Positions 9,620-62,499 of a stretch of 64,000 bases of DNA are shown one piece after another. A model generated the notes under the pieces. That model worked only from the letters and a program-made list of their open reading frames with translations. It was not told the origin of the DNA and did not search any database. Both the position numbers and the translations under genes were made by a program. The stretch comes from Octopus vulgaris (lineage: Eukaryota): contig OX597814.1 of assembly GCA_951406725.2 (NCBI GenBank), forward strand, positions 102,610,001 to 102,674,000, written 5' to 3'. Numbering within the stretch: the first letter of the stretch is position 1; each line of letters begins with the position of its first letter.

Positions 9620-10562
9620 TCTCGAGTATAACCAGCCGAAACTGCAAAGATAATCTAGAACTTGACTGAGGATAGAAAACTCCGAATGATCCGTCCTTGT
9701 TTTCCTTCGATCGTCTGTCTGGATATTTTGTTTTCCTTTTTTTGTTTCACCTAACTGTCTGGATGTTTTGCGTTCTTGTCCCATTTTTGTATTTTTATAT
9801 ATAAAATATTGCGGCGTACGTACACTTTGGTCTCTTATATGTAAGTATATATATCTAAATTTTGTACGACTTTATTGTTCTTTGAATTCTTTCTTTCTTT
9901 CCTTCTTTCTTTCAGCTCTTTCACACTTCGTTCATTCCACTCTTCGTTCTTTCGTTCCCCCTCTCTCACATTTTCTGGCCTTCTCTTCATGCTCACTTTC
10001 CCTCTTTCACTTCACTGTGTCTCATTCATTTTTCTCTCGCCCCTCCTTAATTCTTCTATCCTTCTGCCTCTACCTCTCTCTCTTCTCTCCCCACGTGTTC
10101 GGCCAGGCCTGACCTTTCTTTCTTGGTTGGACTACTGTCCGTGCAACATCTATATTCCTTCATGTGCTTGTTAAATCTTATGTCCCTGCCGTAAGGCTTT
10201 ACTTCCACACACGCCAGCTTAATTTAATTCGTCCTTAATCGAAAGACACCTGTTGTTATGTCCTGTTATTTATATTTGTGTAACATTTCTGTTGTTTTTT
10301 TTTATCGTCCTTGCTTCGTATGCATTCGCTGCTTTCTTCCAAGGAATCTAATGCTCTTAGCTTATTTTTCCTTGTGGCTGGCCAGATTGGAGCTATCTTG
10401 AGTATAACCATCCGAAATTGCAAAGATTATCTGGAACTCGACTGAGGATAGAAAACTCCGAATGATCCGTCCTTGTTTTCCTTCGATTGTCTATCTAGAT
10501 ATTTTGTTTTCTTTTTTATGTTTCACCTGTCTGGATGTTTTGCGTTCTTGTCCCATTTTTGT
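9620..10562 (+). repeat. Element with ~165-bp direct terminal repeats (9620-9790, 10398-10562)
   Basis: GAGTATAACCA...GACTGAGGATAGAAAACTCCGAATGATCCGTCC...CGTTCTTGTCCCATTTTT occurs twice; ends in (TA)n; Penelope pLTR-like organisation. Confidence 0.6.
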
Positions 10563-25391: not shown

Positions 25392-26048
25392 GGAACTTTA
25401 CCTTTTGACCGACAGATTTAAAAAATAATTTTTTGTAACTAAACACTTTCAAACTTCGGACACTGGTAGAATGTCATATAAAACATCTTTTACTCTTAGC
25501 GTTTTTGAGAAAAGCTTATATTTAGGAAGTTATTTCACATTAAAGTTCTCGTATTTCAGTAATTTCAACCAATCAATGACGTGTATTCAGCTGAATAAAA
25601 TTACTGCCGATGTTTGTCAACAACAACTATCGGCGGTGTATTTTTCGTTTGTCACTGTTATTTATGACATCGTTCGTGCGTTTGTACTGGTTTTAGCTTT
25701 AGGGTTTTAGGGTTAGGGTTTTAGGGTTAAGGTTTTAGGGTTAGGGTTAGGGTGTTAGGGTTAGGGGTTGTCATAAATAACAGTGACAAACGAAATATAC
25801 ACCGCCAGAAGTTCTTGTTGACAAACAACAGCAGTAATTTTATTCAGCTGAATACACGTCATTGATTAGTTGAAACTACCGAAATAGGACAACTTTAACG
25901 TGAAATTACTTCGTTAATATAAGTTTTTCTCAAAAATGCTAAGAGTAAAAGATGTTTTGTATGACACATTCTACTAGTGTCCGAAGTTTGAAAGTGTTTA
26001 GTTACAAAAAATTATTTTTTAAATCTGTAGATCAAAAGGTAAAGATCC
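25392..26048. mobile_element. Foldback element with (TTAGGG)n centre
   Basis: ~280-bp inverted arms GGAACTTTACCTTTTGA...TCAAAAGGTAAAGATCC; telomere-like repeats at 25698-25768. Confidence 0.85.
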
Positions 26049-43110: not shown

Positions 43111-44589
43111 TACTCAATTTATCAACCCTGAAAGGATGAAGGCAAAGTGGACCTCGGTAAGTGCGGCTGTTCTATATCAGTCGAAATAAATCACTGCACC
43201 CTACTATGGTATCAAGTCCTTTGTCTATCGCTCCTTAATACCAAGGCATGTCTGTTCTCTTCTATTTTTAATTCTATTTTCAAGTCTTCCAGTAAGGAAA
43301 GAGTTGGAATGTAGATGGGAAAAAAAAATAGATGTTGAAATTGAGAAAAGTCTTGTACATATTTACTGTTGTGCTTACAGATTGTATATGTAATGTGCAT
43401 GTTAGCTTACTGATTTCTCCATTTGAAAACCCCAGCTTTTCCAGACTCTCACCTAAGCACTTACGAACAAAACCAGGTGCACCAATTATGGTTGATATAA
43501 AGGTGAATTTATAATCTGGGTATAGAAGTTGAAAGTTTCGAAGTAGTTGACCATTATATAGTATAATTAACTGAAATTATTCGTGAAATTAGTTGGAAAA
43601 AAATTTCTTTAGGTGCGTTTAAAATCTAGAAATAAATAAATAAATGAATAAATAGATAAATAAATAAAGAAAGAAGGAAAGAAAGAAGGAAAGAAATCTC
43701 AGTAATTAATTATAATTTGCAGATGGAAGTATTAAAGGAACAAACATGTGTCCAATCTTATTAACACTCCTCAGAGCAGGCTATTACATTTAATTGGCAG
43801 GATCAAGATAGAGCAATGTAGATATACACACATTCAGACATACAAACATATGTACACACACACACACACACACAAATAGAGTGTGTAATGATACTGATTT
43901 ATGAATGCCAGCAATGTGAGTGAGGGTAAACACCTCAGGGGAAACTATTGCATTCTACATACAAGTACGGTAGTCTCACATATGTAATATAATAAACTGA
44001 AAAACATATATTACCTCAGATTGTCTATAGAACTAGAGAAACGAACAAGGACAAACATGCATAATACACACAAGCACGCACAACTACATACAAATGTGCG
44101 CGCGCATGTGCGTGTACACGCAGGCCTATGCCACCCACTTTCTCTTTCTCTATATATATATATAATATATAAATAATATATAAATATATGCATATATACA
44201 TACATATATGTACATACCTACATATATATGTATATTCGCCATGGTAGATCGGTAGCCACTACACACATTTTATCTCTCCTTGTTTCTCTCGTTTCTTTCT
44301 GTGTTCCTTTCTGTTGAAGAGCGTAGGCTCGAAACGTTAAAGACTTTTTTTCAATTCCCGAGCGTTATACTAATCCATCTGTTTGTTTTCTACCACAGAT
44401 ATATTTTAGATATATAAACAAGGCTAACTTAGCTATTTCTCCGTAGACTGTGGTCAACCTTAATCGATTTTCGAATCTTATTGTTATCTCATCCAGGGCT
44501 ATTACATACTCAACATTTCCAGTAGCTATCGAAAACTGGGGCTACTAATTTGGACAACCTAAGTGTTAACACTTAGATATTCCTCATAA

Positions 44590-45394
44590 AGTTTTTCTTC
44601 CCATAACTAAGTTGGAAGAAAAACTTTATGAGGAAGTAGAAAAAACTTTTGATCAGGAGTACAAGAAATATATCATTAAAAAGTGGCAACGCTCTCTTGA
44701 TGATTGCTTCATCTTCTGGGACAGATCGAATGAAGTTCTAAGTATATTTAATAATATACTGAACACACTTCACCGATCCATCAAATTCACGACAGAATCC
44801 AGTTGCAATGAATTACCATTCCTGGATATCCACGTAAAAATACAGAAATCCACAGTCACAACAGACATATTTTACAGAAAAACTGACACACACCAATATT
44901 TAAATTTCTACTCTTGCCATCAAAAGAGACATCCCATACAATATGGCGAGAGGCATCCGTGCTATATTGACTGACCACAAAATACGTGAAATCTGATTAA
45001 AAGAACTCAAAGGCTTCCTCATAATGCAGAAATACCCCTTAGGATTAATTAATGAGGGAATTAAAAAGGCGATGAAACTGAACATCACCCAACGGCGGAC
45101 ACCTAAGGAAAAAGTTAATGAAAACACGATTCCGTTCACTAACACACACAGTCCTGGAATAACCAACATCTTTCATGCTATAAAATGGAACTTACCTATT
45201 ACTCCTACAACTCACCAAAATAAAAAATCTGATTGAAAAAGAAAACACCTTACGGAATAGTAGTAGATGCCAACCGAAAAATCTTTAAGAAAACTTTACA
45301 TAGGGCAGTATTCAAATCAGAGTATGAATCAGAATTCTTAGTGAAAGAATGTGGAGAGAGGAGATGTGGAACATGCAGCAACAGCGGCGGCGGC

Positions 45395-45437
<43 letters not shown>

Positions 45438-45750
45438 ACAACAACAACAACAACAACTTCAAATACTTAGAAAGTGGTCTCCACAAAATTCAAGAGAGGG
45501 TCCTTTTTCAAAATAAATGCAGATATGAACGCAAAACTTCATATACTGCATTACCTGCCCAAACTGCAAAGAAAATTACATTGGCAAAACAAATAATTCC
45601 CTCCGCCGATGTGCAAGAATCCACAGGCAACATATCCGACAAGAAGAATTATGCAAGATTCCATTAAGTAAGCATCTGGAAATATGCAGCGATGGGAAAA
45701 TTCAATAATTTTCCCTTTTACAAATGTGCACGGAATGATCCGCAATACTG
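44590..45750 (+). mobile_element. Penelope-like element fragment (RT + GIY-YIG), interrupted by trinucleotide tract 45375-45457
   Basis: RSLDDCFIFW, IKFTTE, LPFLDI, FYRKTDTHQYLNFYSCH; FIYCITCPNCKENYIGKTN. Confidence 0.88.
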
Positions 45751-48427: not shown

Positions 48428-51400
48428 TTAAGCTGGGTTACTCTCACCCACCTTTCTCATCACATCCTTCCAACGTTCCATATACTCTTTCTGTGGCAGG
48501 CTCCTCTTCTCCAACCCCATCTTGCTCTTCAGATGATATCCGAAGTATTTTAACAAACCGGGGCCAGAGATAAAGGACCCTTTCACTAGACCTTCCAATC
48601 TAGTTCTCCATACACATTCTTTCAATACTGCCACCGTACAGTAAAAACAAGCCTTACCTTCCTTTGAGTGTCCAGTTGGCGGTATCATCTTAATCATAGA
48701 TCCAGCCGACAGCTGTACTCGTCCCAGATGCGACAACACGTGTTCAACGTAACTTATCAAGCCTGACAGCTCCCGTCATTGTACAAAAGCGTGTTGAACG
48801 GTTTCATCGTCCAACCCACATCTTGGACACGTCGGTGGCACTAACATTCTGTGCCTGGATAACTTCTCGCGAACAGGTAATGCATTCCTATAGCACTGCC
48901 AGGTCAGGGATTTTTGGTAATTATCCAAATACCCTGACCTGAAAGTCTTCTTAAACAGGTTGGAGAGTTGATCCTCATCGAACCCCAGAGCCCCTCCTAG
49001 GACGTCGTCATTTTTTTCCTTCTACCAGCCCTTTATAGAACACCGAGGTGGTATTCCCGTTGCCGGCCTTGCCCATCTTGTGGATCAGCCAGAGTGCCTG
49101 TCGGCACTCCTTCTGCCATGAAGTCAGGTTACGTCCTTTAATGAGACCGGGTGTAAATCCCTCCATAGAGGCCGGTCGCGGGAAGAATTCCTCTGCCAGC
49201 GAACTCCACACCTTATCATCCTCCAGGTAACACCAGAGGTGTCTCAGCCTCAACGCATGCTTGCGCATCATTAGCCAAGGCATCCCCAGTCCACCCTTTA
49301 GCGGTTCCTGGCAACACACGGAGCGCCTCACAAGTGGCTTTCCTCCTGTCCACAAAAAGCGGAAAAGGAGTCGTTCCAACTTGTTTAACCACGAATCGGG
49401 GCAAGGCACGACGGTCAGGCGGTAGGTGACGACAAAGGCTATAAACATCTGTGCCACCTCCGCCCTCCCTTTCAAGGAAAGATGCCTTCCGGGCCACTTC
49501 CGTACTATGGCATCCACCTTGCTCGTTACCTCGCTCCAATTCTTCTCCGTCTGGGAGTCTGGACCAAACCAGACTCCGAGCAATTTAACGGGACCATCCG
49601 TCCAGTGTCCAACAACACTGGACGGTATCGGCTTGTTCCTCCAGGTGCCGAGGCGCAAACCGATGGACTTGTCCCTGTTAACTTTTGCCCCTGCCACCGC
49701 TTCGTATCTATGGAGAGCACCTGCTACCCGAGGTAGCTGTGTTTCGTTGGACACGATGAGGGTGACGTCATCCGCATAGGCAGAAACAGACTTACCGCAG
49801 CAATGGCTCAAGAGCCAAAACATACAGGAGCGGGGACAAGGGGCACCCTTGACGAACTGAACGCTTGATCGAAAACGGCTCCGTTAGGTAACCGTTTATC
49901 TGGACTGTGGACTTGATGCCGCTGTACATAGCTGAGATCCACCCGCAGAAGCCAGGGCCCAGCCCAGCCGCTTCGAGGACCGCCGCCAAGTACCGATGGT
50001 CTACCCTATCAAACGCTTTACTTTGGTCTTAATGGCCCAATGCCCCTCCTTTGCCGTCTAATTTCCCGACCCTATCTATAGTGTAGTGGAGAAGGTGAAG
50101 ATTCTCCTGGATCGATCTGCCTGGGATTGCACATGTCTGTGCCTTCCCGACAAGTTTCTCCACGACAGCCGTCAACCTTTTTGCTAACACCTTGGCCAAA
50201 ATCTTAAACTCTACATTAAGTAGAGTTATGGGCCTGTAATTACTAATACTGTCCCCCTTGCTCGGGTCTTTCTGGACCAGCGTCACCACTCCGACTCACA
50301 GAGTTGGGAATCCTCCCATTCTGTTGCCAGTTTGCATAGACGCTTACCAGTATGTCCCCGAACAAGTCCGGTATACAACAATAAAATACATAGGGCAGAT
50401 CATCCAGCCCCGGCGACTTTTCCCCGGCGCACTCGGCCATAACCCCTCTTACCTCCGCAGGAGAGATCGATCCTTCACAGCACTCCGCCTCACCAGCCGA
50501 GAGCCGAGGCCCACCAGCTAGGAAGTCCTTTAAGGTCTCCCCACGCTCGAGCGGACCACCGCCCCCAAACAGCCGTGCGAAATGCTGGTGAAGGACCTTC
50601 TGCATCTCCTCCTGTCCATAGATCTTGCGGTCCTGCTCGTCAGTTAAGGACATAATACAGGACTTTTTGCCCTTCTGACTCTCCTCACGACGGGCCCATC
50701 CGGCAACGTTAATACCTTCTCGTTTTCCTGCACATAACTTAGCTCTGACTCTACACCCCTCGTGCTTGGCGTTGAGGTGACAGTACAATACCGCTCTCGC
50801 TGCCAACACTCCAGATGCACAGCCAGATTCCATAGCCTCGTCTAAGTTCTTAACTAATTCGCCCTCTATTCTAGTCCTATCTAAACTTAGCTGTTTGCTA
50901 AATCTAATGGACTCCAAACGGATGGCTCTTTTGAGGGCGAGCCACCATCTATTATTAATGATGGTGCCACATAATGCCCTCTGTACTAATTCCTTAATCC
51001 GGGTACGGAAAGCTTCACAAGTCAAAATAGACTTGTTCATTTTCCAGTACCCGGGACCTTGTCTATGGCATTTATCTACCTGTACCTCACACGTCACAAG
51101 TTTGTGATCCGTGTAAGGCACAACAGAGAATTGTGGACAGCTAACACTATTCCTATCTCGTTCCTTAACAAATACTCTATCTATGTACGATCTGCGTGAG
51201 CCGTCGTTATTACTCCACGTCCACTGTGGAACGTTCGGCTCATCCAGTCGAAAACGGTCTACTAGATTAAAGCTCGCTAGTAGAGCCTTGAGGCCAGGAT
51301 TCCCCTTCCTATCGCTCGAACCTACACTATCCACCCGCGCATCGAGAATGGTGTTGAAATCCCCTACCAAGACTACCGTTTTGGACGTCACTAGAAAGTG

Positions 51401-51772
51401 CTCCAGTTCCCGAAAAAAACCGAACTGCCCACGTCCATTAGGAGCGTAGACAGCCACCAACCTGAAGGACTGCTTACTCACGTGCGTCACATCTAGGACA
51501 ACCAGCCTACCTTCTGGGTCCAGAAAGACAGTACTTACCTGTAAGTCTAAGTTCTTCCTGAAAAGAACTGCCACGCCTGCACCTCCCTCTCGGCTAGGAG
51601 AAATAAATTTCTCGTAACCATTGAGAAGTGGTGAGAACGCTTGGGGTCCTTTCAACTTGGACTCGGTAACAATAGCTACATCGATTCTATGTGGAATGAG
51701 GTCGTCCCGAAAACAAGCATGTTTCCATTTCGACCCCATTCCACGCACATTTATACAACCTAACTTAATCAT
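48428..51772 (-). pseudogene. Tx1 A ORF2 (APE endonuclease, RT, zf-RVT), frameshifted
   Basis: INVRG, VYAPN, GDFN, SYIDR, TDHK, SPGLDDLP, NYRPITLLN, RQGCPLSPLLY, AYADD. Confidence 0.92.
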
Positions 51773-52186
51773 CGAAAAAAAGAAAATTATTTACTCACGG
51801 TTGCAAGAGGGAGCCTGACAGATTCCTTCTGCCTGTCTTCCCCCCCACTCGCCGTTGCTGCTGGGCGTTTCACCGGCGTTGCCACCGGGCTCTGGGTTGG
51901 TGTGGCTGCCGGGCTGACGTATAATTTCCCAGTTGTCACTTCCTGGGTGACATCCTTAATGAAGCCGGCTTTTACGAGGTCTTGTAAGTTTTTTCCTTTC
52001 CATCCTTCTTCGCCGACCCTTGCATATCGCCACTCCGCTTCCTTCTCGGTCGCTTTGTAGCCCTGATCAGCATACTTGCTTGCACAAATTTTGCTACTCT
52101 CTCGTTCCTTGTGGTGTATGCTATAATTTTTTCATTGGGTTTAAACCCTTTTACAGTTGTGGGGTGGGATTTGTTAAAGTGCTGGC

Positions 52187-53311
52187 CTATAAATGTAGGA
52201 CCGCCGGGGTGGGATTGGAGAATATTTTTAATTTGTTCGTCTGCGTTGTTTTTTGTTTTTTTTTTGTGACAGGTGGGGAGTCAGGGGTGATGGATTTTTT
52301 TCCTTTTGTTCGACACGTTCGTGAATTCCATATATTTGTTTTTGTTGTATTAATTTCCTCCTCCTTTCCTTTCTCATTTTGCATTCCGTTCTTGTCTTCC
52401 TCCTTTTTGGAGTTCGACCTGTTTTTTTTTTTTCCTCCTTGCTTTCGCCAGTCGTTACATTGTTCTCCACTTTGCTGCTTTCTGCGTTCTTCACAGCGGT
52501 TTTTTTTTGGGGGGGGGGGGGCGTTGCCTGTATTATTTTTCTTTGTGCAAACGGAGCGAACGTGGCCCTTTTGCTCGCACTTAAAACATCTGGGCCTGCG
52601 TCCTTCCACCGAAACTCGTATGGAGTGCCCCTCCCCCACGAAGACTCTGTCTGGTAGGCTTTCCAGCGTCGCATTTTCCGCCTGAATAATCATCTCCAGC
52701 TGCTGGCCTCTCCAGTGTTTTGCAATTTTCCTCTTCATACTCAAAATTGTCAATTTTGATTCAACATCAAAAATGACCGCTGTTGCCGCCCACATCACGT
52801 CGTAGCCCCTTGGTATATCTTCTAGGGTCACTTTTGCTGTTCTGCACCCTAAATATAAGGGTAGTAGTATTATATTCTCGTTTTTCAACGTTTGCGTCGA
52901 AATTTGCCTTGCTTCTTCCGCCGTCTCAAAATGCGCCTCCACTGTAGCGCTTCTTGCACCTCGGTTGACATGACGAACTTTACTCCATATTGGTGCCATA
53001 CACTTTTCGACCATTTCGTTTTTTACGTCGGTCATTCGTTTTTCTTTTATATTGTACACCTTGTAGGTGACCATTTTTTCCTTTATTGCCTGTATAGTTT
53101 CAGGGGGCGGTACCAACCGTGTTTCTTCACCACTTTTTTGCACCAGCGGTCTGAACTTGAATAGTCTTTCCATTGACACCTCCATTTCTCCCACTTCGCC
53201 ACCTACGGCGTCTGAAAAACTGGGTTTTGCCTGTGTTTCCTTTTGTTTAACAGTTGTTATACCTTCTCCCATCTCGGGAAAGTCTTTTTTTGAACTTAAG
53301 TCTAATTCCAT
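52187..53311 (-). CDS. Tx1 A ORF1 (gag-like, CCHC zinc knuckle)
   Basis: CFKCEQKGHVRSVC; homologous to the copy B ORF1; C-terminus possibly frameshifted. Confidence 0.85.
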   Translation of the reverse strand: MELDLSSKKDFPEMGEGITTVKQKETQAKPSFSDAVGGEVGEMEVSMERLFKFRPLVQKSGEETRLVPPPETIQAIKEKMVTYKVYNIKEKRMTDVKNEMVEKCMAPIWSKVRHVNRGARSATVEAHFETAEEARQISTQTLKNENIILLPLYLGCRTAKVTLEDIPRGYDVMWAATAVIFDVESKLTILSMKRKIAKHWRGQQLEMIIQAENATLESLPDRVFVGEGHSIRVSVEGRRPRCFKCEQKGHVRSVCTKKNNTGNAPPPPKKNRCEERRKQQSGEQCNDWRKQGGKKKNRSNSKKEEDKNGMQNEKGKEEEINTTKTNIWNSRTCRTKGKKSITPDSPPVTKKKQKTTQTNKLKIFSNPTPAVLHL

Positions 53312-53820
53312 ATTAGACAACACAAACTTGTCACAAATGACAAGAGAATTTTTTTCAAAAATAACCTATGCAGGTTAAGAGTTCACACAAAAAAAAACAC
53401 ACAGAAATTTTCTACCCCGAAGGGCGAAAATTACTGGGTCAAAAACAGTTCAACAATTATATTACGTGTAACACAACAAAGTAGACAAACGGAAACGAAC
53501 TCACACAACGATTTGCAGCAACAGAAAGATATTTGATATACTCCGAGGAAAATTTCAAAAAACACCGGTTTTCGATGATAATTCTTTATTATGATTATAA
53601 AATCAGTACATAGAAGAACAATACAGAACATACATACAAAAAACAGTTAAGTGGTTCGTTTAAAAATTTCCAAAATATATGGATTATTCATTATACAAAA
53701 AACTGTATATAAATTGTCCTTTGCATTGACTAATATAACATTACATTGGATTGAAATCTTACCGATATATTTTAAACCCCGGCAACCCCGCAGCTTTCCT
53801 TTCCTCTTCTCCATCCATAG

Positions 53821-56800
53821 TTAAACTGGGTTTTTGACACCCACCTTTTTCGCCACTTCCTTCCATCTTTTTCCATACACACCTCGTGGTAAGGTCTTCT
53901 TTTCCAGCCCCATTTTGCTCTTCAGATGATATCTGAAGTAAGTGAGCAAGCCGGGGCATGAGACAAAGGATCCTATTGCGACTCCTTCCATTCTTGTACG
54001 CCACATGCATTCTTTTACTACTGCAACCGTGCAGTGAAAACATGCCTCACCTTCCTTCGAGAGTCCAGTTGGCGGTATCATCTTAATCATAGACTCAGCC
54101 GACAGCTGTACTCGTCCCAGATGCGATAACACGTGTTCTGTGTAACTTATCAAGTCTGACAACGGCCGACAGTGTACAAAAGCGTGCTGGACGGTTTCAT
54201 CGTCCAACCCGCATCTTGGACATGTCGGTGGCACTGAAATTCCGTGCCGCGATAACTTCTCGCGAACAGGTAAAGCATTCCTATAACACTGCCAGGCCAA
54301 GGATCTTTGGAAATTATCCAAATACCCCGTCCTGAAAGTCTTTTTAAACAGGTTGGTAAGTTGGTCTTCGTCGAACCCCAGAGCCCCTCCTAGAACGTCG
54401 TCGTTCTTTGCCTCTACCAGCCTGCTATAAAATACCGAGGTGGTATTTCCGCAGCCGGCCTTGCCCGCCTTGTGGATCAGCGTGAGTGCCTGTCGACACT
54501 CCTTTTGCCATAAAGTCAGATTCCGTCTTTTGATGTAACCGGGTTTAAAATTCACTAAGGAAGCCGGTCTCGGGAAAAATTCCCCTGTCAGCGGACTCCA
54601 CACCTTATCACCCTCCAGGTGGTGCCAGAGATGCTTCAGCCTCAGCGCATGTCTGCGCATCATCAACCAAGGCATTCCTAACCCACCCTTTAACGGTTCC
54701 TGGCAGCAAACGGAGCGCCTCACAAGTGGCTTTCCTCCCTTCCACAAAAAGCAGAAAAGGATTCGCTCCAACTTGCTAAGCCATGAATCGGGGCAAGGGA
54801 CAACGGTCAGGCGGTAAGTGATTACAGATGCAATAAACATCTGTACCACCTCCGCTCTTCCTTTCAAGGACAGAAACCTTCCGGACCAGGTCCGTACTAT
54901 GGCCTCCACCTTGCCCGTCACCTCACTCCAATTACTCTCGTTTGGGAGTCTGGCCCAAACCAAACTCCTAGCAACTTAACAGGACCGTCTGTCCAGTGTC
55001 CCACGGCACTGGACGATATCGACTTGCTCCTCCATGTGCTGAGGCGTAAGCCAATCGACTTGTCCTTGTTAACTTTTGCTCCTGCCACCGCCTCGTATCC
55101 TCTGATAGCATCTTCTACACAAGGTAGCTGAGCCTCATTGGACACGATGAGGGTGACGTCATCCGCATAAGCAGAAACCGTCCTCCTGCCTCCGATCTCA
55201 TCCGGGTTACTTCCCAGCCTCTCCAACTTTCGCAGCAATGGCTCGAGAACCAACACGTACAAAAGTGGTGACAAGGGGCACCCTTGACGAACTGAACATT
55301 CGATCGAAAACGGTTCCGTTAGGTAACCGTTTATCTGGACGGTGGACTTGATGCCGCTATACATTGCGGAGATCCACCCGCGAAATTCAGGGCCCAGTCC
55401 AGCCGCTTCGAGGACCGTCGCCAGGTACTTATGGTCTACCCCATCGAACGCTTTACTTTGGTCTAAATGGACCATTACCCCGCCCTTGCCGGTTAATTTA
55501 CCCACCCTATCTAAGGTGTAGCGTATAAGGTGAAGATTGTCCTGGATCGACCTGCCTGGAATTGCACATGTCTGTGCTTTCCCTACAAGTTTCTCCACGA
55601 CAGTCGTCAACCTTTTTGCTACATTAAGTAGAGTTATGGGCCTGTAATTACTAATGTTATCCCCCTTGCTAGGGTCTGGATTAGCGTCACCACTCCCCGG
55701 CTTACATTACTGGGAATTCTCTCGTTCTGCTGCCAGTTCGCGTAGACGCCTGCCAGTATTCCCCCGAACAAGTCCGGTATACTTTGATAAAACTCGTAGG
55801 GCAGACCATCCAGCCCCGGCGACTTCTCCCCGGCGCATCCGGCCAGTACCCCCTCTATCTCCGCGGGAGTGATCGCTCCTTCACAGCACTCCACCTCACG
55901 CCCCGAGAGCCGCGGTCCGCCGGCTAGGAAGTCCTTTAAGGCCCTCCCCCGCTCCAGCGAACCACCACCCCCGAACGCGCAGGCGAAATGCTGGTGAAGA
56001 AACTTTTGCATCTCCTCCTGTCCATAGATCTTGTGTCCCTGTTCGTCAGTTAAAGACTTGATTGAAGCTTTGTTGCCTCTCTGACTCTCCACACGGTGGG
56101 CCCATCCGGCAACGTTAATACCTTCTCGTTTCCCTGCGCGTAGCTTAGCTCTACAACCTTCGTGTTTGGAGTTAAGGTGATGGTACAATACCGTCCTTGC
56201 TGCCATCACTCCGGATGCAGAGCCAGATTCCATTGCCTCGTTTAGATTCTTAACTAAATCGTCCTCTATCCTAGACCTATCTAACCTTAGCTGATTGCTA
56301 AATCTAATGGACTCTGAACGAATGGCTCTTTTGAGGGAGTGCCACCATCTATTGTTAATGATGGTGCCACATAATGCCCTCTGTACTAACACCTTAATCC
56401 GGGTACGGAAGTCTTCACAATTCAAAATAGACTTGTTCAGCTTCCAGTACCCGGGTCCCTGTCTATGACACTTATCTAATTGCACCCTACAAGTCACAGA
56501 TTTGTGATCCGTGTAAGGCACAATGTGAAACTGTGGACAACTAAACGTATCCTTATCTCTTTTCCTAACGAATATCCTATCTATATACGATCTGCGTGAG
56601 CCGTCGTTATTACTCCACGTCCACTGTGGAACGCTCGGCTCATCCAGTCGATAACGGTCTACTAGATTAAAGCTCTCTAGTAGACCCTTGAGGCTAGGGT
56701 TCCCCTTCCTATTGGTTGAGCCAACACTGTCGACCCGCGCTTCGAGGACAGTGTTAAAGTCCCCTACTAAGACTACCGTTTTCGACGTCACTAAAAAGTG

Positions 56801-57172
56801 CTCCAGATTCCGAAAAAACCCCGACTGCCTACTCTCTTTCGGAGCGTAGACAGCTACCAACCTGAAGGACTGTTTACTTACGTGGGTCACATCCAGAACG
56901 ACCAGCCTGCCTTCTGGGTCCAGAAAGACAGTACTTACCTACAAGTCCAAGCTCTTCCTGATAAGGACTGCCACGCCCCTTCCTCTTCTTCGGCTAGGAG
57001 AAATAAATTTCTCGAAACCATTTAGAAGAGGCGAGAACGCTTGGGCCCCGTTCATCTTGGACTCGGTTACAATAGCTACGTCCACTCCGTGTGTCGTGAG
57101 GTCGTTCAGGAGACAAATTTGTTTCCATTTCGACCCCATTCCGCGCACATTCACACAACCCAGCTTTGCCAT
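53821..57172 (-). pseudogene. Tx1 B ORF2 (APE, RT, zf-RVT), frameshifted
   Basis: VNVRG, GDFN, TDHK, SPGLDGLPYEFY, DQSKAFD, AYADD, CPRCGLDDETVQHAFVHC. Confidence 0.92.
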
Positions 57173-57555
57173 TGTCGGAGAGAGAGAAAAAAAAATAAAC
57201 TTACGGTTGGGACAAGGAGCATGACAGTTTAAATCTGCATGCTTCCCCTTCTTCCTCCCTTGTGGTCGTAGCTGCAGGGCTCTTAACCGGCGTTGCCATC
57301 GGGCTCTGGGTAGGTGTGGTTGCCGGGGTTATAGTAAGTTTACCCTCCAGTATTTCGTTAGTAACGTCTCTGATAAGGTTATTTTTTAAATGTTATTGGA
57401 GTGTTTTTTCCTTCCACTCGTCTTCCTTTATTTTTGCAAAACGAGTGGTCGACTTAGTGTCTGCAGACTTACTGAATAATTTCAGTTTTGAAAATTTAAA
57501 ATACTTGAACACTCTTTCGTTTTTCTCGTCGAATGCTACAACCTTTTCATTTTTT

Positions 57556-58635
57556 TTAATCAATTTTTTCCAATCTTGTTTTATGGGGAGGGGCTTGGCG
57601 AACTGTGTTCCAATGAATAGTGCCGTGGGGGTGGGGCTGGGGAATTTGTTTTGTATGCATCTCTGCGAGGTTTGCAGATTTTTTCTTTGTTTGGGGAGGG
57701 GAGTCCAGGGTATTTTCTTTTTTTCTTTTGTGTGTTACCTGTGTAAATTCCATTTGTTCATTTTTATCTTCCGTTTCGGTTCCCTTCCTTGTCGCAGTCT
57801 TGGGGTCTTTTTCCGCCTTTTCTTTTTCTGTGTTTGAAGCACTTTGAGGAGGGGCTTCGCTGTTTTTCTTTTTTTTTATGCAGTTCGAGCGGACGTGACC
57901 CTTTTCACCACATTTGAAACACCTACGTCTGCGCCCCTCCACTGACACTCTCATTGTAATTCCCTCCTCAATAAATACCCTATCGAGTAAGTTTTCTAGC
58001 ACATTATTTTCTGCTTGAACGAGGAGTTCGAGCGCTTGTCCCTTCCAGTTTACCTCCTCTTTCCTTTTCATCTGCAGAATTGAGACTTTCTGCTCTACGT
58101 CGTGCAGAACCACCGCTGCTACCCACATTATATCATATCCTCTTGGAATGTCTTCCACATATAGTTTCGCAGTTCTTTTTCCCATATATGTAGGTAGTAA
58201 CATGATGTCCTCACTTTTTAAGGTCATCGATGAAATCTCTCTTGCCACATCAGCCGAGTCGAAATGTGCTTCAACGGTAGCGCTGCGGGCACCTCGACCG
58301 ACGTGGCGAATTTTGCTCCACACTGGGGTCAAGCACTTCTCTACTATTTCGTTCTTCACGTCCATTATTTTTTTCTCTTTGTTACTGTAAACCTTGTATA
58401 CGACTATCTTAGCCTTTATTTCCTGTAATTTCGCTTGCGGCGGTACCAGTTTAATTTCATTGCCTTCCTTTTTTACCAAGTTCCGGTATTCGAATAACTG
58501 TTCAATTTTAAATTCTACTTCCGTTATGTTTCCGCCACTGCGGCCGAAAAAGACTGTTTTTTTAACCTCGATATCCTTCTGTTCGCCTTTTCCCATCACG
58601 GGAAAGTTGCTCCTCGACGCCAAGTCGAACTCCAT
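57556..58635 (-). CDS. Tx1 B ORF1 (gag-like, CCHC zinc knuckle)
   Basis: CFKCGEKGHVRSNC; RGARSATVEAHF shared with copy A. Confidence 0.85.
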   Translation of the reverse strand: MEFDLASRSNFPVMGKGEQKDIEVKKTVFFGRSGGNITEVEFKIEQLFEYRNLVKKEGNEIKLVPPQAKLQEIKAKIVVYKVYSNKEKKIMDVKNEIVEKCLTPVWSKIRHVGRGARSATVEAHFDSADVAREISSMTLKSEDIMLLPTYMGKRTAKLYVEDIPRGYDIMWVAAVVLHDVEQKVSILQMKRKEEVNWKGQALELLVQAENNVLENLLDRVFIEEGITMRVSVEGRRRRCFKCGEKGHVRSNCIKKKKNSEAPPQSASNTEKEKAEKDPKTATRKGTETEDKNEQMEFTQVTHKRKKENTLDSPPQTKKKSANLAEMHTKQIPQPHPHGTIHWNTVRQAPPHKTRLEKID

Positions 58636-59026
58636 TTCTCAAATTATGAGAACCAATTTTTCAATAAAAAAAAAATTACCCCGAAGGTAATAACAATGTT
58701 TATACACAGAATTTTCAGCCCCGTAGGGCGAAAATTACTATCACACAACGGACAACTGTTCAATTCACGAGCAAACACAAACAACGACGAACAAAAAACG
58801 AACTCACTCAACAAAATAGGCAGCTAACTTCTCAATACGCAGATGAAAGAGGGGTCCCTAGACGAGTCAAAACACCGGTTTTCGATGAAGTGAGACCGTT
58901 TGCAAATCCTTATTTATGGTTTTTCCAGTAACTTTTCGTCACTGATTTCGAAAAACTGTCTGCAAGCAATAATAAATCTCTGAACGAGATGTAAACAGTA
59001 ACTGCACTAGCCATCTCAATATGGCT

Positions 59027-59835
59027 CTTAGTCAGTGTCTTAGTCAGCTGAGTACTTGACAGACACTGACTTTGCTGACGACATCGCTCTTATCAGTGAT
59101 TCTCTCTCCAATGCCCAGTCTCTTTTACAATCTCTTGAACAAGCCTCAAATTGTGTAGGTCTTTACCTCAATGAGGCCAAGACTGAATACATAAACAAGT
59201 GCCTGTCCAACAGTGATTGCAACAGCCATACTCTCAACAATGCGCCCTTAAATATGGTTTCTGATTACAAATATCTTGGGTCATACATATCATCATCTGA
59301 AAAAGACTTTCTAACTAGAAAGGGTATGGCCTGGTCAGCCTGTAATGACATGCATAAGATCTGGTCATCAAATCTAAGTAGAGACTTCAAACTTGAAATA
59401 TTCAAAGCCACAGTCGAACCAATTCTACTATATGGCTCAGAAACCTGGACGTTATCAAAGAAGCTTGAGAGGCGGTTGGATGGAACCTACACTCGCCTCC
59501 TTATAAGAGCTCAAAATCTCTCGTGGAAGCGCCATCCAACCAAAATGCAAATATATGGGAAACTACCACCTGTGTCATCTCTTGTGAAAGGTAAGAGAGT
59601 CCAGTTTGCTGGACATTGTTGTAGAGCTGAAAAAGAGGTAATTTCTACTCTTCTCCTCTGGAAGCCATCTACTCGCAATACCAGAGGGCGCACACTCTCC
59701 TACCCTGATGTAATCTCCAGGGATACAGGCATCCAGCAACAGGACCTCCGTAATGCCATGATGGACCGTGAAGTCTGGCGTAGCATGGTAAATTCCATTG
59801 TCTCGACCACGGTCGAACAATGATGATGATGATGA
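59027..59835 (+). mobile_element. 5'-truncated RTE-type LINE with open RT C-terminal frame
   Basis: DFADDIAL, YKYLGS, LLYGSETWTL; (TGA)n tail; 11-bp TSD TCAATATGGCT (59016-59026, 59836-59846). Confidence 0.9.
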
Positions 59836-60318
59836 TCAATATGGCTAACCACTAAGGGTGGGTGTTACAATAGTTACTATTCTTACCGTTTCAACGTTGA
59901 CGCCTCCCACTACATCGTATACTCTTGCATGTCTCCGCCCATTTTTGCTTCCTTCATTAACTCATACTCTTCCTCTATTGGTAAATATATTTATTATTCT
60001 CTCGCGCTCTCTCCCTCTTTGTATGTCTCTCTCTCTCTCTTTCTCTTCGCCTCCATCTCTCATCTCATCATAAATTACTGAATGCTTCCCCCCCCCTCCC
60101 TTGCTTTCTGTCTTAACTCCCCTGTTCTCTTTCTTATTAAACACAAATAGCATTTTCTTTCTCCCGCCCTCAAAACATATCCACCCAATTCTCCCTCTTT
60201 ATCTCCTTTCTCTCGGTACTTCATTATATATTCATTTTAACCACTCTGGCTACCTTACTATATCGTTCACCTCATCCTCTCCCTCACTTCCTAAACGTAT
60301 ATATATATATATATATTT

Positions 60319-61538
60319 TTACATTATATAAAAGGGCTTAGTAAAATAAATTACTTTGCCGCATACTGAACTCATTAGAAATAGCAGCTGAAAAACTTTT
60401 TTAAAGCTATCTCTAATACTTAAAGAAAATCTCTCTCATATATAGCGTTTGCTTAATTCAACTCACAAAAGTTTGGGGGTAAGGACATTAAAAAATCAAA
60501 TGCTAAGGTTATTTGAGAACGTACGTTTCAAGATTAGTCAAAACAACACTTCTATCATCAGCTCAGAAACTCCTTGGTTTGGATTTGGAAACACTGAAAG
60601 TAAGAACATACCCTTTCGAAGATCCGCTCGTAACTAACAGTGCCAACAAACCCAAATAAGCAAGCGAAGAATTTCTGTTCTCCCCTTTCCACCAGCGTGG
60701 GTTAAAACCATCAAACGCTATGCTTATTTCGGTAAAATCCGAAGCATTAATTAGAGGGAGATTAATTATAATTTCAACAATTGAGGGTAAAATTAATTAA
60801 TTATTAATCAATTTCACCAAGTGTTCAGTATGCAAAGGGACCTTTTATATAATGTAATATATAAATGTAATATATAAAGCCCTTTTATATAATGTAATAA
60901 TTTGAATTCGCCTTAAATGGTCCCTTTGCATACTGAACACTTGGTGAAATTGATTAATAATTAATTAATTTTACCCTCAATTGTTGAAATTATAATTAAT
61001 CTCCCTCTAATTAATGCTTCGGATTTTACCGAAATAAGCATAGCGTTTGATGATTTTAACCCACGCTGGTGGAAAGGGGAGAACAGAAACTCTTCGCTTG
61101 CTTATTTGGGTTTGTTGGCACTGTTAGTTACGAGCGGATCTTCGAAAGGGTATGTTCTTACTTTCAGTGTTTCCAAATCCAAACCAAGGAGTTTCTGAGC
61201 TGATGATAGAAGTGTTGTTTTGACTAATCTTGAAACGTACGTTCTCAAATAACCTTAGCATTTGATTTTTTAATGTCCTTACCCCAAACTTTTGTGAGTT
61301 GAATTAAGCAAACGCTATATATGAGAGAGATTTTCTTTAAGTATTAGAGATAGCTTTAAAAAAGTTTTTCAGCTGCTATTTCTAATGAGTTCAGTATGCG
61401 GCAAAGTAATTTATTTTACTAAGCCCTTTTATATAATGTAATAATTTGAATTCGCCTTAAATGGTCCCTTTGCATACTGAACACTTGGTGAAATTGATTA
61501 ATAATTAATTAATTTTACCCTCAATTGTTGAAATTATA
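60319..61538. mobile_element. Young non-coding Penelope/retrozyme-like insertion: inverted copy + 1.2 tandem 544-bp monomers in (TA)n
   Basis: 60319-60842 is the reverse complement of 60919-61441; 60877-60994 is repeated at 61421-61538; (TA)n on both flanks. Confidence 0.8.
61192..61250 (+). ncRNA. Putative minimal type I hammerhead ribozyme (mirror copy 60511-60570 on minus)
   Basis: TGAG-CTGATGA-stem II-GAAA-CGTACG-TT-CTCA; palindromic stem III; atypical U.U at 10.1/11.1. Confidence 0.55.
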
Positions 61539-62499
61539 TATATATATATATATCAGTTCCCCCCTCTCTCTCTCACACACTCTCTCTTTCTTTCTCAGCA
61601 CCCCATACATTTCTGTATCCCTCCCCCTCCCGTAAATTTCCCTATCTCTCGTTTTTCTTTCTTTCTCCCCCTCTCTCTCGTTCCCTTTCTTTCTCTTTTT
61701 CTCTCCTCCCCCACCTCCTTATATCTTACCCTTTCCCTCTTCCTCTCTTTTTATTTTCCAAATAAATTATATTTTCAGATTTACCTTAAAATTTCTCTCT
61801 CGCTAATTATTTTACCAGAAGCTAATTATTTAACTAACGATTAATTACATAATTACTGTGTAGTTCTTAAGTGAGGAAATTAAATATTAAGCCATTTACG
61901 GACAATTTAAGAAGCATTTATTCAAAGAATCGTCCTACACATGGTTTGACATCATGCTAGAAATAACCGCCCACTACCCTCAAATTGGCGTTGTTTTTCA
62001 TACAAAATTGAAAGACAATTTAAGAAGCATTTATAAAACTTTTCCCGAATCTGGTCGGACTTATTGCTCGAATGAGAAACCAAGTGAAGAAGCGTCTATA
62101 AAACTTATTGGTGGTCTGGTATTTTACTAGAAATAACAGCCCATCACGCTATACTTTACATTGTTTTCATGAAGAACACTTTAAGAAGCTTCTGGAGAAA
62201 TATAGTCCATTTGGGGATTTAATGTGATGCTAGAAATAACAGATCCTCAATAACTATTGTATTTGTTTCCATGGTGATTTTCTATTTCATATGCAAGGAA
62301 TATCGACAGTAAACTGTTACTCTATGCTATAAAAAGCAGGGAAGAGGTTGGCGTCAAGAAAAGTTATTAAACTATAAACACTTTAAAGAATGGAGCCAGA
62401 ATGAATGAACTAATTGTTGCTGTGGATAAAACCTACAAATCAATATAAAGGGAGATAATTAGATTTAACTGTTCGTTACAGTAAATACTTCAGGAGAGG

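What the first reader, a model, noticed from the sequence alone, without database searches (positions are those of the whole stretch)
60319..61538. Young 544-nt circularly permuted unit with a hammerhead motif (retrozyme/Penelope-like)
Seen: 1.2 head-to-tail monomers (period 544) preceded by an almost identical inverted copy (only a few mismatches), inserted in (TA)n, with no ORF. Each copy carries CTGATGA...GAAA-CGTACG-TT closed by TGAG/CTCA. Also, GTTCAGTATGC(GG)CAAAG at the monomer end can pair with CTTTGCATACTGAAC just across the junction. Established: Penelope-like elements and retrozymes carry minimal type I hammerheads with palindromic stem III that work as dimers, and they produce tandem/inverted insertions. 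Inference: a recently active non-autonomous element copied from a circular or multimeric self-cleaving RNA.
Basis: partly seen in the sequence, partly recalled or inferred. Interest (0 to 1): 0.75.

Follow-up and report, generated by a model that had tools for sequence, protein, structure and literature searches.

The report
Retrozyme with shared Penelope priming cassette
This is one young copy of a widespread non-coding jumping repeat that carries a predicted self-cutting RNA motif, a known kind of element, and its two fixed ends and a terminal RNA cassette shared with otherwise different repeat families suggest how a borrowed Penelope-type enzyme likely pastes such RNAs into TA repeats.

Summary
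Observation confirmed: an inverted arm (60315-60847) joins a 1.2-unit arm (60877-61538, period 544), each with a type I hammerhead (0 of 1000 shuffles match). It belongs to a 545-565-nt family (2,170 exact hammerhead 16-mers; 325 marks of the 545 subfamily). 'Variable permutation' fails for the outer ends: arms stop at two fixed points ~97 nt apart, one per arm (71 of 73 classifiable two-armed insertions; 13 of 15 in a second set), as do the genome's autonomous Penelope-like elements (27 of 29). Both arms share a haplotype found nowhere else, so one RNA likely templated both; arms run through the cut site, so a circle or uncut multimer. Some arrays are mosaic (one period-4), against a pure monomer ring. 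New here: the end cassette is shared, with a covarying stem, by families of 529-644 nt (1,496 further matches), not by five autonomous families sampled; one relative is fused to a Hydra-clade tail. Cleavage, circles and the partner enzyme are untested. The scan reported this same 544-nt family and architecture before on other DNA of this genome. Verdict: non-LTR retrozyme, useful for testing the mechanism.

The parts
60298..60316 (.). left (TA)n target
60315..60847 (-). inverted arm, 533 nt, unit positions ~40 to ~22 of the next round; outer end at fixed point E2, lacks the tail
60504..60575 (-). hammerhead of the inverted arm (CTGATGA at 60561, predicted cut after 60518)
60848..60876 (.). head-to-head junction: CC/GG microhomology followed by two short re-copies of the E2 sequence (slippage or re-priming, inferred)
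60877..61538 (+). forward arm, 1.2 units (period 544); outer end at fixed point E1, carries the ~97-nt tail
61186..61256 (+). type I hammerhead: stem I 61196-61199/61244-61247 with distal extension, CTGATGA 61200-61206, 25-nt stem II with U-U base, GAAA 61232-61235, palindromic stem III ACGTACGT, GUU triplet, predicted cut 61243/61244
61389..61482 (+). cassette stem (61389-61399 with 61472-61482) enclosing end point E2; covaries within and between families
61424..61443 (+). E2 site CCCTTTTATATAAT..., internal TA-like stretch where one arm of an insertion ends
61487..61519 (+). tail hairpin GGTGAAAT...ATTTTACC, kept in related families
61527..61538 (+). E1 site GTTGAAAT(TATA), where the other arm ends
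61535..61553 (.). right (TA)n target

Best explanation
The element is a two-armed insertion of a 545-nt non-coding repeat with a predicted self-cleaving hammerhead (a non-LTR retrozyme), likely written into a (TA)n tract by a borrowed Penelope-like reverse transcriptase/endonuclease that would prime both cut DNA ends on one RNA, probably a circle, at two fixed TA-like sites about 97 nt apart. Inferred cycle: tandem copies are transcribed, the hammerhead cuts after GUU, pieces are closed into rings (mostly monomers, sometimes multimers when cuts are skipped); a Penelope-like protein, more likely of the Hydra clade, binds the conserved end cassette, nicks (TA)n, and starts one cDNA at E1 and the other at E2; each runs round the template for a variable distance and the two are joined head to head by short microhomology. 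Shown: anatomy, fixed paired ends, shared haplotype of the arms, conserved cassette. Inferred: transcription, cleavage, circles, priming, identity of the enzyme.
For: Family: 183 matches in 40 of 1,111 candidates, full-length ones at 97-100%; 2,170 hammerhead 16-mers (control 3), 3,463 tail 20-mers (control 0), 325 marks of the 545 subfamily (control 0). Ends: of 122 events, 78 two-armed: 71 E1+E2, 1 E1+E1, 1 E2+E2, 5 with an unclassified end; 39 of 44 one-armed events end at E1 or E2; 180 of 190 such ends abut TA-rich DNA; second set 13 of 15 two-armed E1+E2, none like-with-like. Autonomous Penelope-like families with intact, 99-100% identical ORFs exist and show the same rule, 27 of 29 classifiable two-armed loci read by eye; tails ~30 nt in Neptune-like A and B, ~67-80 nt in Hydra C, D, E. 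One template: divergence 0.21% within an arm, 0.32% between arms, 1.6% between insertions; the window's two-variant haplotype occurs exactly twice in 2.8 Gb, once per arm; L255 has 11 identical full units and L198 7 of 8 full units identical. Not a cut linear monomer: 146 of 212 segments cross the cut site, 61 twice or more. Two primings: in 33 of 64 simple two-armed events the E2 arm reaches further than the E1 arm allows for fold-back (hand count). RNA-level constraint: hammerhead variation sits at N7 (T24/A22), N17 (T42/A5) and 10.1; 99% of stem cells paired in 24 variants; sense strand folds better in 10 of 10 subfamily units. Cassette: 1,496 matches of the G-C version of the stem (control 0) in families of 529, 616-618 and 642-644 nt, 12 of 30 loci with a same-strand hammerhead. 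L293 joins such a relative to a Hydra-D hammerhead and tail at a 4-nt microhomology, outer ends E2 (repeat) and E1 (Hydra D). Literature proposes PLEs as mobilisers (PMC7229834 discussion; Li et al. 2026).
Against: Nothing was shown on RNA. The unit and cassette share no clear sequence with the five autonomous families sampled (only 21-28-nt look-alikes to C, E 0.05-0.13), and the 97-nt tail matches none of their tail lengths, so the partner is unidentified. Several arrays are mosaic (L034 period 4 at three sites; L036, L044, L046, L083, L219, L236, L256, L261), which a single monomer ring does not give. 16 of 64 inner ends coincide within 15 nt (4.3 expected, 0 of 20,000 permutations), 10 at the same physical point, which fits fold-back or a shared broken end. 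The hammerhead fold is not the MFE (-1.4 against -10.4 kcal/mol for the isolated 79-mer); 8 of 9 Xenopus retrozyme dimers did not cleave in vitro. Absence of polymorphism in the 13 core positions is not significant alone (0 seen, about 1 expected from 46 polymorphic sites) and covariation in the ribozyme does not beat shuffles (97 of 500); the cassette stem change inside the family is 1-2 events. Loci were chosen by best score or by exact motifs, which favours E1-bearing and cut-site-crossing arms.
Confidence: 0.6

Rival explanations
1. Same Penelope-driven two-ended priming, but the template is a linear, uncut read-through transcript of a genomic array; circles play no part and the hammerhead is slow or serves only to trim ends.
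For: Weak predicted ribozyme (GUU, 2-bp stem III, alternative MFE). Mosaic arrays; in L044 both arms carry the same variant at the same physical distance on a multimer (761 nt from E1, 660 from E2). 10 events share one physical inner end. Axolotl multimeric RNAs run as linear sizes (PMC7229834 passage).
Against: Most arrays are homogeneous for haplotypes found in no other sampled insertion (15 private or near-private variants in both arms); the window's haplotype has no source array in the assembly; L034's four-unit pattern runs twice and exists only there; arrays of up to 12-13 units would need equally long source arrays of the same haplotype.
Confidence: 0.25
2. One end is primed; the inverted arm arises by fold-back self-priming of the first cDNA (or of an antisense RNA), as proposed for Penelope palindromes.
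For: 16 of 64 inner ends coincide within 15 nt, 10 with a length difference equal to the tail. Self-priming was proposed from palindromic junctions in Adineta Penelope (PMC3846280 passages). It also explains the shared haplotype.
Against: 48 of 64 inner ends do not coincide; in 33 of 64 the E2 arm is longer than a copy of the E1 arm could be (e.g. L250: 3,307 against 133 nt), and the E1 arm holds tail sequence absent from the E2 arm.
Confidence: 0.1
3. The unit is only the truncated terminal repeat of an unsampled autonomous Penelope-like element, or a satellite amplified and homogenised at the DNA level.
For: Penelope-like elements here are many (9,204-34,994 first-look candidates) and only five families were examined. 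Animal retrozymes are often pLTR-related (Li et al. 2026). Gene conversion could homogenise arms.
Against: In 122 + 23 events no arm continued into coding sequence; arms wrap from unit to unit; the three C24 copies that looked linked to other DNA sit in a mariner remnant of a segmental duplication, and the copy inside Hydra C is an internal passenger. Dispersal over many chromosomes with fixed ends in (TA)n is not satellite behaviour.
Confidence: 0.05

Closest known systems
Metazoan non-LTR retrozymes (Cervera and de la Pena 2020, PMC7229834: passages and Discussion seen; Li, Clavereau and Pollet 2026, bioRxiv 10.64898/2026.07.22.740005: parts 1-3 of 5 seen)
   Same: Non-coding tandem units, one type I hammerhead each, GC about 33%, no LTR features, co-occurrence with PLEs; ribozyme like axolotl HHR_Amex2 (2-bp stem III with tetraloop, U-U at the base of stem II).
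   Different: Unit 545-565 nt (170-400 nt in the 2020 paper; 51-972 in the 2026 preprint); two-armed insertions with paired fixed ends and a cassette shared between families are not described in the text seen; no pLTR parent found; expression, cleavage and circles untested.
Endonuclease-bearing Penelope-like elements, Hydra and Neptune clades (Craig et al. 2021, PMC8557442: passages and section 11; Arkhipova et al. 2013, PMC3846280: passages)
   Same: Partial tandems plus an inverted 5'-truncated copy, a tail at one end only, (TA)n targets, type I hammerhead near the 3' end.
   Different: No ORF; tail about 97 nt against 30-40 nt in print and 30-80 nt in this genome's five sampled families; arrays of up to 12-13 full units; no shared terminal sequence.
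Non-autonomous Chlamys PLEs such as MRC1 (PMC8557442 passage)
   Same: Non-autonomous, multicopy head-to-tail insertions made by PLE machinery.
   Different: Those generally resemble their autonomous family at the 3' end; this unit does not resemble any sampled one, and it carries a hammerhead.

Membership tests
Metazoan non-LTR retrozyme | Tandem non-coding units of a few hundred nt, low GC, no LTR/PBS/PPT | tested here: met
   (545-565 nt, GC 33-35%); PBS/PPT not searched explicitly
Metazoan non-LTR retrozyme | Complete type I hammerhead motif in each unit, two or more in tandem | tested here: met
   in the window each arm has one, tandem hammerheads occur at other loci
Metazoan non-LTR retrozyme | Self-cleavage in vitro | not testable with these tools
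   only folding predictions
Metazoan non-LTR retrozyme | Expressed as linear and circular monomer RNA | tested here: inconclusive
   no RNA holder on record; contigs only
Metazoan non-LTR retrozyme | Dispersed, recently mobile copies | tested here: met
Metazoan non-LTR retrozyme | Target-site duplication | tested here: inconclusive
   insertions sit in (TA)n, a duplication cannot be read
Autonomous EN+ Penelope-like element | ORF with RT and GIY-YIG endonuclease | tested here: not met
   no ORF in the element; no arm continues into coding DNA in 145 events
Penelope-type insertion product | Tandem plus inverted 5'-truncated copy, tail at one end only, (TA)n target | tested here: met
   same rule in autonomous families
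pLTR-derived non-autonomous PLE | Sequence shared with the 3' end of an autonomous family | tested here: inconclusive
   not found in five families; other families unsampled
Minimal PLE hammerhead | Vestigial stem II | tested here: not met
   25-nt stem II with two 3-bp helices kept in 24 variants; the definition of 'minimal' is recalled

The most novel reading that the evidence does not exclude
The genome holds a long-lived superfamily of ribozyme RNA rings (529-644 nt) with no coding parent, unified by a conserved ~200-nt structural cassette that presents two priming sites to a Hydra-clade Penelope enzyme; both cut strands copy one ring, and rings may be multimers in which dead ribozymes ride along (L034). 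The cassette would be the first defined cis signal for retrozyme mobilisation and a portable module for writing circular RNA into DNA.
Probability: 0.3. Interest if true: 0.75.

Novelty: new variant of a known kind. Interest (0 to 1): 0.52.

Why it matters
How animal retrozymes get back into DNA is proposed (PLE enzyme, circular template) but, in the texts seen, not shown. Here the ends, the shared haplotype of the two arms and a cassette conserved across families give exact predictions: where cDNA starts (E1, E2), which structure the enzyme should need, and which young intact enzymes to try. The same data bear on the open question of how Penelope's inverted copy and one-sided tail arise.

Tried and rejected
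Rfam: no hammerhead family matched the window or 8 related loci, including autonomous elements, so silence there says little. RNA evidence: no RNA holder listed; contigs of guessed-RNA runs cover the unit but cannot show expression; a contig end at 61244 in one run is explained by a T/A variant at 61243 and was dropped. Empty-site test with four contig sets gave no usable joint. Link to other DNA on C24: mariner remnant in a segmental duplication. Hydra C as parent: first read as a shared 3' end, then rejected: it is an old, short two-armed insertion inside C's 3' UTR, seen in 7 of 9 C loci, absent in L143 and L144. L132, L134, L275: separate neighbouring insertions. Pile-up of 5' ends at the cut site: weak (5 against 1.8 within 2 nt, 7 against 4.0 within 5 nt). 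RNA-editing bias: none (A>G 9, T>C 10, G>A 10, C>T 3 among rare event-wide variants). Source locus for L034's dead-ribozyme units: none, 4 matches all in that array. One search used a mis-registered structure and a faulty descriptor; both were redone. Paper searches listed no paper on cephalopod retrozymes or on two-ended priming of retrozymes; the library lacks most subscription papers, and supplements were not read.

Full report
Observation. The window holds (TA)n, an inverted arm 60315-60847, a short junction, a forward arm 60877-61538 of 1.2 units with period 544, and (TA)n. The arms differ at 4 of 533 columns plus one gap. There is no ORF. Each arm has a type I hammerhead: stem I TGAG/CTCA, CTGATGA, a 25-nt stem II with a U-U base, GAAA, palindromic stem III ACGTACGT and a GUU triplet; a descriptor of my own finds these 2 places only in 64 kb and nothing in 1,000 shuffles of the unit. 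Rfam does not detect it. The unit folds far better than shuffles, but the ribozyme fold is not the predicted minimum for the isolated motif.

Family. The own genome (2.8 Gb, 227 contigs; earlier scan notes call it a cephalopod, which I did not test) gave 183 matches in the 40 of 1,111 candidates scored. Exact motifs count 2,170 (hammerhead 16-mer, control 3), 3,463 (tail 20-mer, control 0) and 325 for the 545-nt subfamily. 47 full units fall into 10 clusters of 545-565 nt, 81-96% alike; the hammerhead strand folds better in 10 of 10. Among 46 young insertions the ribozyme varies at N7, N17 (U to A) and the base of stem II; no core position has a variant in two or more insertions, which alone is not significant. 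In 24 variants 99% of stem cells stay paired, with covariation no better than shuffles. Runs of five coded organisms hold the sequence, none on record as RNA.

Ends. E1 lies at unit position ~111-115 (61538) and E2 at ~12-24 (60315 on the inverted arm), about 97 nt apart. Of 122 events (L202 dropped as a duplicate of L201; L243 and L244, copies of L242, not entered) 78 are two-armed: 71 E1+E2, 1 E1+E1, 1 E2+E2, 5 with an unclassified end; 39 of 44 one-armed events end at E1 or E2; 180 of 190 such ends abut TA-rich DNA. A second set of 23 events gave 13 E1+E2 of 15 two-armed, none like-with-like. Loci were picked by best score or exact motifs, not at random. Inner ends are spread over the unit and often joined by 1-6 nt overlaps. 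This is the Penelope pattern of an inverted copy and a one-sided tail (PMC8557442 passages; PMC3846280 passages), with a longer tail.

Candidate enzymes. Starting from remnants I found five families with long intact ORFs: A and B (775 aa; RVT_1 and GIY-YIG; CX2-5CxxC linker, Neptune-like) and C, D, E (722, 727, 717 aa; C and D tested for the RW[KR], DKT, CxxC and CxH marks of the Hydra clade; E is 40-45% identical to them). A, D and E copies are 99-100% identical. All insert in (TA)n with the same rule, 27 E1+E2 of 29 classifiable two-armed loci read by eye, tails about 30 nt (A, B) and 67-80 nt (C, D, E). None shares its terminal sequence with the unit beyond 21-28-nt look-alikes in C. C carries an old short two-armed copy of this family inside its 3' UTR (7 of 9 loci), a passenger, not a parent.

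Template. In the young subfamily, units differ by 0.21% within an arm (199 pairs), 0.32% between arms (97) and 1.6% between insertions (13,752). The window's two private variants occur together at exactly two places in the genome, the two arms. 146 of 212 segments run through the predicted cut site and 5' ends pile up there weakly at most, so a cut linear monomer is not the usual template. In 33 of 64 simple events the E2 arm reaches further than fold-back on the E1 arm permits (hand count), which argues for two primings; 16 of 64 inner ends coincide within 15 nt (4.3 expected), which keeps fold-back or a shared broken end alive for a minority. Homogeneous arrays (L255, 11 identical full units; L198) fit a monomer ring. 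Mosaic arrays do not: L034 repeats a four-unit pattern twice at three sites, two units in four with a G8A core change found nowhere else; L044 has one variant at the same physical place in both arms. Multimer rings, linear multimers, later duplication or conversion, and assembly error are not separated.

Cassette. Inside the family it is C-G in 62 and U-A in 25 insertion-level votes of 94, 1-2 events on a tree of 20 units. Chance hits in fetched loci showed other repeats with the same layout. A pattern with the G-C form of a second pair finds 1,496 places (control 0); because the pattern demands both arms, the count shows co-occurrence, not independent covariation events. The 30 loci examined include tandem units of 529, 616-618 and 642-644 nt, 60-80% alike to the 545 unit over the cassette where aligned, with E2-like site, stem, hairpin and (TA)n end in order; 12 of 30 have a same-strand hammerhead, 11 with an 81-84-nt stem II; none had PLE coding DNA joined to the cassette. 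In L293 a relative's forward arm runs, through a 4-nt microhomology and no (TA)n run, into 163 nt of a Hydra-D end (95%), so the outer ends are the repeat's E2 and D's E1: one event with a template switch, or two nested events. It is a single case and only a lead towards Hydra enzymes. A word search of earlier findings returned no note on a shared cassette.

Comparison and verdict. It meets the sequence-level definition of animal non-LTR retrozymes (PMC7229834, passages and Discussion; Li et al. 2026, parts 1-3); cleavage and circles are untested. It is not an autonomous PLE but is inserted like one. Five paper searches listed nothing on cephalopod retrozymes or paired fixed ends in retrozymes; supplements were not read. 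Earlier scan notes describe the same 544-nt family and the same two-point architecture in other families of this genome; they are not independent support. Best reading: PLE-driven two-ended priming on one RNA, probably a ring (0.6); linear multimer (0.25); fold-back (0.1); pLTR fragment or satellite (0.05). New variant of a known kind; interest 0.52.

Noticed in passing
window 44570-45667: Broken Neptune-like Penelope remnant (RT thumb region and CX4CX2C linker); used as query to find families A and B.
   Followed up: partly
window 48428-58638 (minus strand) and 59044-59823: Several broken LINE-like ORFs (endonuclease plus RT, upstream ORF with a zinc knuckle) and an RTE-like RT fragment; labels recalled from motifs, not tested.
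   Followed up: no
window 9620-9790 and 10396-10560: Two copies of a repeat with CTGAGGA...GAAA that does not pass the hammerhead descriptor; also seen in L119.
   Followed up: partly
window 25689-25766: Interstitial TTAGGG-like repeat.
   Followed up: no
L137-L142, L190 (about 340-570 nt after the ORF): Hydra family C carries an old two-armed retrozyme insertion inside its 3' UTR and spreads it as a passenger.
   Followed up: yes
L293 (G000:C1:7808683-7811790): Cassette-bearing repeat fused to a Hydra-D hammerhead and tail; the repeat's own hammerhead has a UUGACGA core.
   Followed up: partly
L034 (G000:C3:21721425-21725933): Eight-unit array with period-4 variants, two units in four with a G8A core change unique in the genome.
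   Followed up: partly
L289-L309: 616-644-nt tandem family with a hammerhead whose stem II is 81-84 nt long; an array of 12 lies at C1:120155844-120162729.
   Followed up: partly
L127-L135, L275-L288: Autonomous families B and E have CCGAAGA in place of CTGANGA in their hammerhead-like motif (E did not pass the descriptor).
   Followed up: no
L031-L033, L242-L244 (C24) and L201-L202 (C1): Segmental duplications that multiply single insertions.
   Followed up: yes
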